The position numbers and the translations under genes were made by a program. A model generated the notes under the pieces. It was not told the origin of the DNA and did not search any database. It saw only the letters and a program-made list of their open reading frames with translations. 64,000 nt of DNA from the NCBI RefSeq assembly GCF_044704955.1, contig NC_091999.1, positions 11,036,001 through 11,100,000 of the forward strand. The letters run 5' to 3'. Positions 8,371-63,305 of the stretch are shown here, in pieces. Every line of letters starts with the position of its first letter. Position 1 is the stretch's first letter. Source of the DNA: Pristiophorus japonicus (lineage: Eukaryota).

Positions 8371-8847
8371 ATGGGAATCCTGTTTTTTTTCACCCTGTGT
8401 ATCTGTTTCCCACGTGAGTACCCTGCAGCCAAATCGACATTGTGTGGATTTAATATAAAGCTGCCGTGTGCATCCGAATTGCAGACGTTATCTGTGTTTT
8501 AGCCCCGTTGTGTGTTTCGGCTCATATGATCCATTAAACTCTCCCCATTCAATTTCCAGGCTCTTTCAGTCAGTCAGTGGTACAGACCCCGCCAGCGGTG
8601 ACCAGACAGGAGTGTCAGTCTCTCACCATCACCTGCGTTTTCTATGGTGGATTTTGGGCTCATCCTTTAACTCGTGGGGATTTCTTCAGACAAACCCAGA
8701 CCGGGACGGAGTGGGAGCGGATCTCGAGCGACAAGCGATTTGTTATGAGGACGAATGTGGCTGTAAAGACATTTTGGCTGCAAATTAGGGAAGTGCGAGT
8801 TGAAGACAGCGCCACCTATTACTGTAAAGCTCAGTACAAAAATAATA
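8371..8847 (+). CDS. NAR-TCR (IgNAR-like) V gene segment: leader exon 8371-8413, V exon 8560-8847
   Basis: Leader MGILFFFTLCICFP + GTGAGT (phase 1); acceptor TTCCAG; open V RSFSQSVVQTPPAVTRQECQSLTITC...FFRQTQTGTEWERISSDKRFV...EDSATYYCKAQYKNN; short FR2/CDR2 region and YYCKA ending typical of VNAR-type domains; RSS follows. Confidence 0.92.
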
Positions 8848-8885
8848 CACAGTGATGGGCCTTGGCATCCCGCGACACAAAAACT
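8848..8885 (+). other. Recombination signal sequence, 22-bp spacer (23-class)
   Basis: CACAGTG (8848-8854) + 22 nt + ACAAAAACT (8877-8885). Confidence 0.95.
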
Positions 8886-9199: not shown

Positions 9200-9268
9200 A
9201 GATTTTATGCTGACGTGAAGCAGTGTGTTGACTGGAACAACACAGTGGAAGAGACCTGAGCAAAAACC
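9200..9268 (+). other. NAR-TCR D segment (9228-9240, TTGACTGGAACAA) with 12-bp RSS on both sides
   Basis: 5': AGATTTTAT-12-CAGTGTG (9200-9227, weak nonamer); 3': CACAGTG-12-GCAAAAACC (9241-9268); frames read LTGT, stop, DWN. Confidence 0.88.
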
Positions 9269-9582: not shown

Positions 9583-9690
9583 GGTTCTTGTGTCGGGGTG
9601 ACTGAGACCTGTGTCACTGTGCTGGAGACAGCTGGAAGTATGATTATGTGGATGGATCCGGGACTGTGGTGACTGTCACAGCCGGTAAGT
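9583..9690 (+). other. NAR-TCR J segment (9622-9684) with 23-bp RSS and splice donor
   Basis: GGTTCTTGT (9583-9591)-23-CACTGTG (9615-9621); translates GDSWKYDYVDGSGTVVTVTA; phase-1 donor GTAAGT at 9685. Confidence 0.92.
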
Positions 9691-15890: not shown

Positions 15891-16048
15891 CCCCTCTTAT
15901 TCTTTCGACATTGACTGCGAATACATTTGCAACAGGCTTCAAATGAAAATAGCATTAACGTGAGAGGCAGAACTTTTCCTGTGACTGACCACTGTCCCTG
16001 GGTAAACAGCAGCCAAATAAATTACATTCTTCCATTTTTATCCTCCAG

Positions 16049-16354
16049 CTTCCAGTTCCACAGTGTCCCAGAGTCCGCCTCTACAAACCTCTACTGTCGG
16101 TGACACCATTACTTTAAGCTGTGAATATGCAGGTGCCTGTCAGCACACAGTGCACTGGTACTGTCAGTCCCCAGGGCAGGGTCCGAAATACCTGCTTCAG
16201 AGACACACTTCAGGAGAGGGAAATAAAGAAAACACTGCCGGTGGCCGAATTTCTGCTTCGGTCGATCCTGTAGAGAAAATCAGCCGGTTAAACATCGCAA
16301 AACTTCAACTAAGTGACAGCGCTGTGTATTACTGTGCACTGGGTCGGCGCACAG
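16049..16354 (+). CDS. Leaderless 'supporting' TCR-delta V segment of NAR-TCR
   Basis: Polypyrimidine acceptor ...TCCTCCAG at 16048, phase 1, matching the J donor; open V ASSSTVSQSPPLQTSTVGDTITLSCEYAGACQHTVHWYCQSPGQGPKYLL...LQLSDSAVYYCALGRR; extra Cys in CDR1; no leader exon seen upstream. Confidence 0.9.
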
Positions 16355-16393
16355 CACAGTGATAAACAGTACGGAGAGAGCCATACAAAAATC
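16355..16393 (+). other. 23-RSS of the supporting V
   Basis: CACAGTG + 23 nt + ACAAAAATC. Confidence 0.95.
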
Positions 16394-16808
16394 TGATCAT
16401 GGTCGGGATTACAGATACGCAGTCATACAGAACAAGGAAAGAGCAGTATTAAAGCTGATTATGGTGGATATTACATGCACATAGGGACACAAAGCACGGG
16501 TAGAGTTCGAAAGCCTGGACAGAGTGGGGCTTACAGACACACAGTGATTCAGAGCAGGGAGAGAGCCGTACAAAAACCTGATGTTGGTGGGGAAACAGAT
16601 ACGCAGTCATAGCGAGCATGGAGAGAGTCATACTAATATCTGAATATTGTGGGGATTACAGGCACACTATGACACAGAGCACGATGGAGTACAAAAAGCT
16701 GGACATTGTCGGGATTACAGACACAGAGTGCTGCAGAGCAGAGAGAGATCCGCACTAAAACCTGTTCATGGTGGGTATTACAGTTATGCACTGAATCAGT
16801 GCAGAGGG

Positions 16809-16960
16809 AACATGAGAACATAAGAAGTAGGAGCAGTAGTAGGAAATACAACCCCTCGAGCCTGCTCAGCCATTTAATACAATCATGGCTGATCCGATCA
16901 TGGACTCAGGTCCACTTCGCTGCTCGGTCCCCACAATCCCTTATTCCCTTATCTGTTAAG
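16809..16960 (-). mobile_element. CR1 3'-tail fragment inserted in the RSS array
   Basis: AACATAAGAA..AGGAGCAG..CCCCTCGAGCCTGCTC..CCATT..AATCATGGCTGAT, same as other CR1 tails in the window. Confidence 0.8.
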
Positions 16961-19044
16961 AGCAAGGAGAGGGAGGGAGTGGGAGTGCAATGAGAGGGAG
17001 AGAGCAGCGGAGAGGAAGTGGAGCGGGAGAGCACGGGGGAGAGCAAAGGCAGGGGGAGACCTGGAGCGGGGACGTGGAGAGCCAGGGGAGGTGGAGAGCA
17101 GGGGGAATGGACAGCAGGGAGAGTCGTACGAAAACCGGAAAAATGTTGTGGATTACAGACACACATTGATAAAGAGCACCGAGCGAGTTCAACAACCTAC
17201 ACATAGTGGGGATTACAGACACACAGTGATACAGTGCACCGAGAGAGTTCACAAAGCTGGACGTGGTGGAGATCACAGGCACAGCGATGCAGAGCACGGA
17301 GGCAGCTGTTGAAAAACCTAATCATGGTGGAAAGAGCGATGAGTTCCTGCATATTTTAGGGATCTCGGAAGGAGATTAAGAAGTATCACCTCAAAGGTAA
17401 TTATCTCCAGATTACTCACGGTGCCACGAGCTTGTGCATATAGCAAAAGTAGGAAAGAGCAGAGCAATGCCTGGCTGGAGAGATCGTTCAAGAGGGACGG
17501 CTTTAGATTCCTGCTACATTGGAACCCGCTCCAGGGGATGTGGGACCAGTAAAGGCAGGAAGGTTTGCACCTCAACTTCCCGGTCAAATATTCCGCAGCT
17601 GGGGGGTGGGGGTTGCACGTTCTGTTGGAAAGCTTTAAAATAATTTTGCAGACGGTTGGGCACCATAATGTACCATTAGATGAAAGAATACAGATAGCAC
17701 TAGAGTAAGAAATATTAAGTTATTGGGTGGTAGTCAGACGAAGAGAGAATACAAGGATATTTATTAGCGATAAACGCAAAATTCTTGGTTAATCAGGTTG
17801 GTGAGCAGCAGGTGGAAATAGCCACATGCGAATATGATGTTGTGGCGATAGCGGCTGACAGAAATGCAGGATTGGGTATTAATTAGTCCTAGATATAGGT
17901 GTTAAGGAATGGGAGGGAAAGAAAGGAGTTGGGTTGGCAGTATTAGTTAAGGAGAATGTTACAGTGCTGGAGGGAGGCTATGTACTGGATGGGTGAAGCA
18001 TAGACTCTCTTTGGTTAGATATAAGAAATAATAGAGCTGCAATTGCACAACTGGGTGTTTTCTACAGGCCACCAAATAGTGGGAAGGATATAGATGGGGG
18101 CATTTGCAGGTAAATTACAGAGAACAACAAGAACTACAGAGCAGTGACAACGGAGGCCTTGAACTATGCTAATATAGTCTGGGATAATAATAGCATAAAG
18201 AGCAGAGAGGGGAAAGAATTTCATTGTGTGTTGAGGAGAACTTTCTTGAGCAGATGTACTCGAGGTGGAAGACTTCAACGTCCATCAAAAAGATTGGCTC
18301 GGTAGCAACACTATTGGCCGAGCTGGCCGAATCTTGAGGACATAGCTAACAGACTGGGTCTGTGCGAGGTGGTAAGTGAGACAACACGAGAAGAAATAAC
18401 TACTTGACCTCGTCTTCGTCAATCCACCCGTCGCAGATGCATCTCTCCATGACAGCTCTGGCAGCAGTGGTCACCGCAAAGTCATTGTGGTGACGGGATC
18501 CCATCTTCACACTAACGACATCCGCTACCGTGTTGTTTGGCACTATCAACGGGCTAGATGGGATAGGTTCAGAACAGGTCGAGCAGCTCAAAACTGAGTA
18601 TCCATGACGCAGCAGCAGAATTGTATTCCACCACAATCTGTAACCTAATGGCCCGGCATATCTCTCAATCTACCAATACCATTAAGCGAGGGGACCAATC
18701 CTGGTTCAGAGTTGCCTGTAGAAGAGCATGCCAGAAGCAGCACCAGGTGTATGTAAAAATGAGGTGCCATCGTTGGGAAGCTGCAAAACAAACTACATGC
18801 ACCCTAAAACGTGGAAGCAGGATGCCATAGACAAGGTTAAGCGATCTCACAAACAGAGAATAAGATCAAATCTCTGCAGTCCTGCTGCATCCTGTCGTGA
18901 ATGTTGGTGGAGCATCAAACAACTAACGGGAGATGGTGGTTCCATGAGTATCCCCATCAGAAAAGATGGCAGACCCAGCACGTCAGTGCAAAAGACCAGG
19001 CTGCAGCGTTTGCAATCATCTTCAGCGAAAAGTGCCAAATGGAT

Positions 19045-50790: not shown

Positions 50791-50794
50791 TTAA

Positions 50795-51100
50795 TACACA
50801 GCAGCATAGGCAACACACTTTACTAATTACCTATTATACAATGGCCATGAGGTGCATTCATACCAGCATGGGGAACATATTGTACTCATTACCTATTACA
50901 ATGGCCATCCGAAGCTTACACCCGAGCATAGAAAACACATTTTACGAATGACCTCTTATGCAAATGCCATCAGTAGCATGCATACCAGCAGAGGGAACTC
51001 ATTTTACAATTGCCTATTACAATAGATATCAGGAGCATTCACACCAGCATGGGTAAAACATTCCACAATATACCAATTGCAATAGACATCATTAGCTGGT
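50795..51100. repeat. ~60-bp minisatellite (CACCAGCATGGGGAACATATTTTACAATTACCTATTACAATGGCCATCAGGAGCATTCA-like), ~5 copies plus one at 48876-48930
   Basis: Visible tandem copies on both sides of the CR1 insertion. Confidence 0.85.
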
Positions 51101-62459: not shown

Positions 62460-62582
62460 GGGATTAAAGCCAATGTTGGCCCTTTAATAGGCAATTGAGG
62501 CCAATGTTTGCCCTTTAACAAGGGATTGAAGCCAAAGTTGATCCTTTAACACATAATTAAAGCCAATGTTGCCCCTTTAACG
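62460..62582. repeat. ~31-bp minisatellite x4 (ATTAAAGCCAATGTTGGCCCTTTAA...)
   Basis: Visible tandem copies. Confidence 0.8.
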
Positions 62583-62828: not shown

Positions 62829-63305
62829 TTGTTTTGTACGGGGTTACTGCATCCGTGTAACAGTGTGGGGCGCAGCGCAGATTTATATACGGCGGAGTCA
62901 GAGACTAAAGCCCCGGAGACATTAAATGAAACCGATTTCTTGTCTTAGTCCTAATCATCAGAGATCCAGTCTGGGAGATTTCGAGAATGATCCCGCTGCC
63001 GCTTGCCGTGTCTCTTCAGTAAATATCTCGGAGTTTTCCCGGGATGATGGATATACCAGAAGAGGTAAGTATAGGATTGGGATGTGGAGTAGCTGCAGAA
63101 GAGTATTATGGTCTGTCCTTCCTGAACCGTTAATTCTGACGGATCCTGGGACACTGAATCTTCGCCATTCGTTCCAGTTACAACATGCAGAATGCGTCCA
63201 AAGTCTGGAAGTGAATTTGAACCATGAAAGACACAGTGATCAGTTAATCACAGACTCACCAGGCAGTACGATCATTATTATCAATAAGGAACATGGGGAG
63301 TACAT
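62829..63305 (-). pseudogene. TCR alpha/delta V pseudogene with 23-RSS
   Basis: Leader MYSPCSLLIIMIVLP + GTGAGT (63305-63260); acceptor AG mutated to TG; EDSVSQDPSELTVQEGQTIILFCSY..LFWYIHHPG..DD*D*..SDSAVYKSALR (second Cys lost); CACACTG-23-ACAAAACAA. Confidence 0.88.

What the first reader, a model, noticed from the sequence alone, without database searches (positions are those of the whole stretch)
16540..16578. Perfect-consensus orphan 23-RSS with no coding segment, better than the V's own RSS
Seen: CACAGTG-ATTCAGAGCAGGGAGAGAGCCGT(23)-ACAAAAACC is an exact consensus match, 185 bp 3' of the V RSS whose nonamer is ACAAAAATC. A join made here would keep the in-frame TGA at 16360-16362 and be non-productive, but it would leave the real V RSS intact upstream. 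Inference: it may act as a competing decoy, or as a sacrificial first-round substrate that permits later rearrangement of the same V to a more distal 12-RSS. The deletional elements TREC/deltaRec and kappa-KDE are functional analogies. Units at 17222 and 17280 also keep CACAG.
Basis: partly seen in the sequence, partly recalled or inferred. Interest (0 to 1): 0.7.

Follow-up and report, generated by a model that had tools for sequence, protein, structure and literature searches.

The report
Repeated cut signals behind shark V-gene
The perfect spare DNA-cutting signal is real, but it is one of eleven head-to-tail copies of the signal belonging to a shark T-cell-receptor gene segment; it is predicted to be cuttable by the RAG recombinase, yet the copies wear away like unselected DNA, so it is likely a duplication by-product rather than a purpose-built decoy.

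Summary
In detail: an exact 23-RSS lies at 16540-16578, 185 bp behind the V's RSS, with no coding segment. It is unit 4 of an 11-unit, ~61-bp head-to-tail array of copies of the RSS of a leaderless supporting V-delta in a shark NAR-TCR cassette. Such arrays occur only behind paralogues of this V in 1.46 Mb scanned. 'Better than the V's own' is one change at non-critical nonamer position 8; a paralogue has both signals perfect. Heptamers and nonamers of spare units are no more conserved than the rest (39/109 vs 93/303, P=0.82). The perfection of this unit has P~0.10 under drift, and two paralogues with open V frames lack it. D-delta and J-delta lie 1.3 Mb away on the opposite strand, so a join would be an inversion, not a TREC/KDE-type deletion. 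RAG probably cuts it, giving non-productive joins; no reads were available to test this. The scan noted the same array before in other shark/ray genomes and at a paralogue here (unchecked AI notes). That keeps a selected RAG-loading role for the array as a whole open.

The parts
8371..8413 (+). NAR-TCR leader exon (MGILFFFTLCICFP, GT donor)
8560..8847 (+). NAR-TCR V exon: open frame, Cys in a-b loop, no Trp of WYRK; best single-domain PDB hits are shark VNARs
8848..8885 (+). RSS of NAR V, 22-bp spacer
9200..9268 (+). NAR D segment (9228-9240) between two 12-RSSs
9583..9684 (+). NAR J segment (9622-9684, ...DGSGTVVTVTA, GT donor) with its 23-RSS (9583-9621, read on the - strand)
16049..16354 (+). 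Supporting V-delta exon: splice acceptor, no leader seen, open frame, extra Cys in CDR1
16355..16417 (+). Array unit 1 (A1): the V's own 23-RSS (16355-16393, nonamer ACAAAAATC) plus 24-bp linker; holds in-frame TGA TAA at 16360-16365
16418..16539 (+). Units B1 and C1: dead RSS copies (heptamers CGCAGTC and CATAGGG; C1 spacer 20 bp)
16540..16578 (+). The finding: perfect orphan 23-RSS, the signal part of array unit 4 (A2, 16540-16601)
16602..16785 (+). Units B2, C2, A3: dead copies (CGC start; 19-bp spacer; CAG start); second turn of a 184-bp trimer
16786..17097 (+). Truncated unit, a high-copy interspersed repeat (matches on many contigs, from about 16808) and a purine-rich tract that interrupt the array
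17098..17279 (+). Units D, E, F: D lacks the heptamer; E and F have 20-bp spacers
17280..17330 (+). Last unit G: CACAGCG-23-TGAAAAACC, a weak but possibly usable 23-RSS

Best explanation
The perfect signal at 16540 is the best-preserved spare copy in a tandem repeat made of the supporting V-delta's own recombination signal, likely spread by slippage and unequal crossing-over and likely not selected as a signal; RAG is predicted to cut it and would then make an occasional non-productive inversion join to D-delta. Shown: the array, its restriction to paralogues of this V, the variable unit number, the decay of most units, and the opposite orientation of D/J-delta. Inferred: the duplication mechanism, neutrality, and use by RAG. 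After such a join the allele would read V - own RSS - 146 bp - N - D, with stop codons in frame. It could be rescued only by a D-less join of the V to a downstream J-delta.
For: Tandem Repeats Finder: period 184, 16355-16790. 11 units of 58-63 bp. 53 unit hits in 1.46 Mb, all behind the 8 supporting-V copies or at one cassette whose V is deleted; hits per copy 11, 11, 8, 8, 7, 4, 2, 1, plus 1 at the V-less cassette. Only 8 of 44 non-first units keep CAC, a 22-24 spacer and nonamer AA. Distinct changes per column in non-first units: heptamer+nonamer 39/109, spacer+linker 93/303, one-sided P=0.82; with CpG masked 28/95 vs 71/272, P=0.75. A2 is identical over 39 bp in window and L002, but the intron differs at 76/1380, so P=0.11. 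About 2.3 changes are expected in its 16 signal bases since the duplication, P(0)=0.10. Hybrid units in L003/L004/L005 suggest deletions between trimer copies, and L003 and L005, with open V frames, lack A2. Only 4 of 71 open V segments have an exact consensus RSS, so exact consensus is not the mark of a working signal here.
Against: A2 has no change in 16 signal positions while B1/B2 and C1/C2 differ at 15-19 of about 60, a weak hint of constraint. Five of six multi-unit arrays compared keep at least one plausible spare signal. The array is confined to one V class. Unchecked AI notes report it in other sharks and rays, which would be a long life for a useless or harmful repeat. The tests have low power: even the true V signals show no clear excess conservation over only four intact copies, and units are not independent. 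The NAR-J RSS of L003 and L005 did not pass the filter and was not inspected, so those cassettes may not be functional.
Confidence: 0.6

Rival explanations
1. The array as a whole is kept by selection as a RAG landing pad. Spare heptamers and nonamers raise local RAG occupancy or capture at the supporting V, which must rearrange in addition to the NAR V-D-J. Single units turn over, but at least one good spare is kept.
For: The array is confined to supporting V-deltas. 5 of 6 multi-unit arrays keep a plausible spare. Heptamers of non-first units match the unit-1 consensus at 84% against 74% for spacers (units not independent). Unchecked AI notes report the array in other elasmobranch genomes.
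Against: No excess conservation of signal columns among orthologous units. 36 of 44 spare units have lost a critical feature. A perfect spare should compete with the true signal and waste joins. Unit number varies from 1 to 11.
Confidence: 0.2
2. One reading: unit 4 is a selected decoy or sacrificial first-round substrate that limits or delays use of this NAR-TCR cassette, or flips the cassette next to D/J-delta so that the V can join a J in a second round.
For: The signal is perfect and identical in two cassettes 5% apart. The geometry allows inversion followed by a deletional V-J join. Use of alternative RSSs with germline retention is documented in mouse TRB (PMC6857471, abstract and discussion part 1).
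Against: Conservation is not significant (P about 0.10). The unit is absent in L003 and L005. A single D-delta was found, so the rescue product lacks D and could form without the decoy. The join is inversional and removes nothing.
Confidence: 0.1
3. The array was built or trimmed by RAG cutting in germ cells, so unit borders mark inherited RAG breaks.
For: 2 of 5 interruptions I looked at fall within about 3 bp of a heptamer start (L008 and C23:10921451; read). An AI note (e1-8591136) proposes this in another genome.
Against: RAG signal joints are head to head, while this array is head to tail (established knowledge). The junction at C23:10921451 keeps CAC. The linker end (GGTCGGGATTACAGA) resembles the V end (GGTCGGCGCACAG), which suggests that the duplicated unit began inside the V and not at the cut site (weak similarity).
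Confidence: 0.06
4. Assembly artefact: a local mis-duplication of the V's 3' flank.
For: Tandem arrays are prone to mis-assembly.
Against: Units differ from each other at 9-19 of about 60 positions, and the same 11-unit order occurs in a separate cassette 0.56 Mb away at 93% identity.
Confidence: 0.02

Closest known systems
NAR-TCR cassette of cartilaginous fish: NAR V-D-J plus leaderless supporting TCR-delta V (as described in PMC1845163, PMC12227049 and PMC3457774 passages; primary papers not held)
   Same: Leader, NAR V with a-b loop Cys and no WYRK Trp, D, J, then a V without leader and with CDR1 Cys, inside the TCR alpha/delta locus.
   Different: The passages read mention no repeated RSS behind the supporting V; here it carries 11 head-to-tail RSS-derived units.
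Alternative or cryptic RSS next to a gene segment's own RSS (mouse TRBJ1-2, TRBJ1-7; PMC6857471, abstract and discussion part 1)
   Same: A second signal outside the proper one whose use keeps germline DNA, including the first RSS, in the coding joint.
   Different: Those are unrelated in sequence to the proper RSS and rarely used; this is an exact-consensus duplicate within a minisatellite, 185 bp away.
deltaREC / psi-J-alpha and the kappa-deleting element (PMC3666889 passages)
   Same: RSS with no coding segment; its use yields no receptor chain.
   Different: Those are dedicated elements whose joins delete the TRD locus or C-kappa and release circles. This one is a repeat unit that varies between paralogues; it would join by a 1.3-Mb inversion, delete nothing and leave the V reusable.

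Membership tests
23-RSS (RAG substrate) | Heptamer starting CAC, nonamer with A5/A6, spacer 23 +/- 1 | tested here: met
   Exact consensus; criteria from PMC212687 passages
23-RSS (RAG substrate) | A 12-RSS partner in the same locus | tested here: met
   D-delta 12-RSS at C23:9737203 and J 12-RSSs at 9.58-9.73 Mb, opposite strand
23-RSS (RAG substrate) | Cut and joined in lymphocytes | not testable with these tools
   No run was listed, so no reads could be laid
NAR-TCR cassette | NAR V with leader, a-b loop Cys, no Trp in the WYRK position, own D and J | tested here: met
   VTRQECQSLTITC and GDFFRQ; VNAR hits E 9e-15; D 12/12; J; criteria from PMC1845163
NAR-TCR cassette | Supporting V-delta without leader and with CDR1 Cys | tested here: met
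   Acceptor at 16048 in phase with the NAR-J donor; CEYAGACQHTVHWY; no leader-like exon among ATGs in the 450 bp upstream (the rest of the intron was not searched)
NAR-TCR cassette | Expressed as a three-domain delta chain | not testable with these tools
   No RNA run listed
Deleting elements (deltaREC, KDE/RS) | Isolated RSS without coding segment | tested here: met
   No V end upstream of 16540; it is, however, a repeat unit
Deleting elements (deltaREC, KDE/RS) | Join deletes a C exon or a locus and releases a circle | tested here: not met
   All D/J segments found lie on the opposite strand, so the join inverts
Deleting elements (deltaREC, KDE/RS) | Conserved dedicated element under selection | tested here: inconclusive
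   0 changes in 16 signal bases against 2.3 expected, P=0.10; absent in two paralogues with open V frames; no excess conservation across spare units

The most novel reading that the evidence does not exclude
Supporting V-deltas of shark NAR-TCRs carry an ancient, class-specific RSS minisatellite that is kept by selection and tunes RAG at this one V class. It either boosts capture of the V or, through perfect spare copies like 16540, allows a two-step route: inversion to D-delta, then rescue to a J. That would be a tandem-repeat control of V(D)J recombination with no counterpart that I found described.
Probability: 0.22. Interest if true: 0.72.

Novelty: new variant of a known kind. Interest (0 to 1): 0.36.

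Why it matters
Even if unselected, an exact 23-RSS 185 bp behind a V is a natural experiment on how RAG chooses between two adjacent signals. It predicts a class of non-productive NAR-TCR joins with 185 bp of germline DNA, which standard repertoire pipelines would discard. If the array proves to be conserved across sharks and rays and to change joining rates, it would be a new way to control a doubly rearranging receptor. As a single site, the finding is largely explained by tandem duplication.

Tried and rejected
Reads: the look-up of sequencing runs (RNA, window 16030-16800) listed no RNA holder, so no reads were laid; this is no evidence either way. Pfam C1-set search did not show C-delta/C-alpha among the 150 scored of 970 candidates; orientation rests on D and J segments. 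A position-weight matrix trained on 70 locus RSSs was blurred by mixed 22/23/24-bp spacers; I drew nothing from its scores. In-frame read-through to a spare signal (long-CDR3 idea) was rejected: the V frame stops 5 nt after the heptamer start in window, L002 and L005, and at 80 nt in L003. Linker as the selected part: 37/148 vs 95/264, P=0.034, but P=0.13 with CpG masked and not planned in advance. L007 has a single unit followed by the terminal flank; this may be the ancestral state or a full collapse, and I could not decide. Literature: searches listed no paper on RSS arrays behind NAR-TCR supporting Vs (listings and starts of abstracts only). The primary papers (Criscitiello 2006 and 2010, Deiss 2019, Ott 2021) were not held, and they or their supplements may describe it. 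No other shark genome could be searched. Look-ups of earlier findings by place and by sequence returned nothing.

Full report
Observation. The exact signal CACAGTG-23-ACAAAAACC lies at 16540-16578 on the + strand. It is the only exact match in the window, and none of 100 shuffles gave one. The genome holds 21 exact matches against 5 for the reversed control pattern, and 9 of the 21 are in this locus. The V's signal at 16355 has nonamer ACAAAAATC, 185 bp upstream. The V frame reads ...YYCALGRRTAQ and then TGA (16360-16362) and TAA. All stated facts check out.

Context. The window is G000:C23:11036001-11100000. It holds a leader, a V whose best single-domain PDB hits are shark VNARs (E 9e-15), a D between two 12-RSSs and a J. 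After a 6.4-kb intron comes a V that begins at a splice acceptor and has an extra Cys in CDR1. These are the features listed for NAR-TCR V and its supporting TCR-delta V in PMC1845163 (passages). I fetched and scanned C23:9.70-11.16 Mb. One D with 12- and 23-RSS (C23:9737184-9737203), J-delta-like segments at 9.727-9.737 Mb and a J-alpha-like array at 9.58-9.68 Mb all lie on the minus strand (the alpha/delta labels are my inference from layout). The window's V is on the plus strand 1.31 Mb away, so it must join by inversion, as must 27 of the 71 open V segments counted.

What the orphan signal is. It is unit 4 of an array of 11 units of 58-63 bp that starts with the V's own RSS: A1 B1 C1 A2 B2 C2 A3, a stub with an interspersed repeat and a purine tract, then D E F G. 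Each unit is a copy of heptamer, spacer, nonamer and a linker of about 22 bp. An HMM of the unit gave 53 hits in 1.46 Mb, all behind the 8 copies of the supporting V or at one cassette whose V is deleted. A genome-wide DNA search with the array found matches only in this locus (such searches skip common words). Unit numbers run from 1 to 11. Diagnostic sites indicate that paralogues L003, L004 and L005 carry hybrid units. B1/B2, C1/C2 and A2/A3 differ at 10-12 sites shared by window and L002, against about 4 expected on their 0.036 stem branch (my arithmetic). So the trimer duplication is likely older than the spread of these cassettes, and L003/L005 and L004 likely lost units by deletion. A later unequal crossover that gave A2 the nonamer of A1 is not excluded.

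'Better than the V's own'. In paralogue L002 both A1 and A2 are exact. The window's A1 differs by one base at nonamer position 8. The critical bases are heptamer 1-3 and nonamer 5-6 (PMC212687 passages), and only 4 of 71 open V segments have an exact consensus. The inversion of rank is therefore one private change of probably small effect.

Selection. Among orthologous non-first units I counted distinct changes per column: heptamer plus nonamer 39 in 109 columns, spacer plus linker 93 in 303 (one-sided P=0.82; CpG masked 28/95 and 71/272, P=0.75). Class D, L008's second unit, L006's fused E/F unit and the shifted L005 A3 were left out; with L005 A3 included the counts were 40/109 and 97/303. 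Only 8 of 44 non-first units keep CAC, a 22-24 spacer and nonamer AA. A2 itself is identical over 39 bp in window and L002, which has P=0.11 at the intron rate of 76/1380. No change in its 16 signal bases has P=0.10 over the estimated branch length, and it is one of several candidate units. L003 and L005 have open NAR V and supporting V frames and lack A2, although their NAR-J signals did not pass my filter and were not inspected. Against neutrality: A2 is clean while its neighbours diverged by about 25%, 5 of 6 multi-unit arrays keep a plausible spare, and the tests are weak, since even the true V signals show no clear excess over four intact copies.

How it most likely works. Shown: sequence, array, orientation and partner signals. 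Inferred: an exact 23-RSS 185 bp from an accessible V signal should be bound and cut by RAG. Joining to the D-delta 12-RSS inverts 1.3 Mb and gives V, own RSS, 146 bp of germline DNA, N bases and D, with stops in frame. Use of alternative signals with germline retention is documented in mouse TRB (PMC6857471, abstract and first part of the discussion). The V would then face J-delta in deletional orientation and could join a downstream J. With only one D found, that product lacks D and could arise without the detour. The site therefore probably acts as a competitor in the mechanical sense, with no evidence that it is kept for that purpose. No reads were available.

Comparison. It shares with deltaREC and the kappa-deleting element the lack of a coding segment, but those joins excise the TRD locus or C-kappa and release circles (PMC3666889 passages). 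This join would delete nothing, so it is not filed with them. It is closest to a duplicated alternative RSS within a NAR-TCR cassette. My searches (listings only) showed no paper on such arrays, but the primary NAR-TCR papers were not held.

Earlier notes. After my own analysis I found unchecked AI notes of this scan that describe the same kind of array behind supporting V-deltas in other shark and ray genomes, and one on a paralogue in this genome. I could not check the other genomes. They raised my odds for a selected role of the array as a whole from about 0.1 to 0.2; they are not support in themselves.

Verdict. A real, probably cuttable spare RSS that is explained by a class-specific tandem array. 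The single site is of modest interest; the array is the part worth testing. Interest 0.36, new variant of a known kind.

Noticed in passing
G000:C23:9.70-11.16 Mb (e.g. 9995614, 10298775, 10977476): 29 of 71 open V segments, from two large families, have a best-fitting RSS with a 24-bp spacer. For those with CACACTG an alternative CAC two bases on gives 22 bp, but for CACAGTG/CACATTG/CACAATG copies it does not.
   Followed up: partly
G000:C23:9737184-9737203: Only one D segment with 12- and 23-RSS was found in 9.70-9.76 Mb, upstream of about ten J-like segments, several with poor or unrecognised 12-RSS.
   Followed up: partly
G000:C23:9746507 (-): The V nearest to D-delta ends in ...EESATYYCAR, like an IgH V; possibly a TAILV-type segment (name from PMC12227049; identity not tested).
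   Followed up: no
G000:C23:10624460, 10928091 (-): Two NAR V-D-J units have no detectable supporting V; at 10921451 the V and most of the array are deleted and one unit remains.
   Followed up: partly
window 61239 and 62867 (- strand): Two further V segments with leaders on the minus strand; the one ending near 62868 appears to have lost the second Cys (...AVYKSALRP) and has a weak nonamer.
   Followed up: no
window 50794-51091 and 62460-62581: Other tandem repeats with period about 60-62 bp, not hit by the RSS-unit HMM.
   Followed up: partly
L005 (G000:C23:10396521): A deletion between units C and A3 appears to have created a new in-register signal CACAGAG-23-ACTAAAACC, showing how unit shuffling can make fresh RSSs.
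   Followed up: partly
L007 (G000:C23:9970165): An interspersed repeat sits 11 bp into the V's RSS of the most diverged cassette (27%), whose V also has stop codons.
   Followed up: partly
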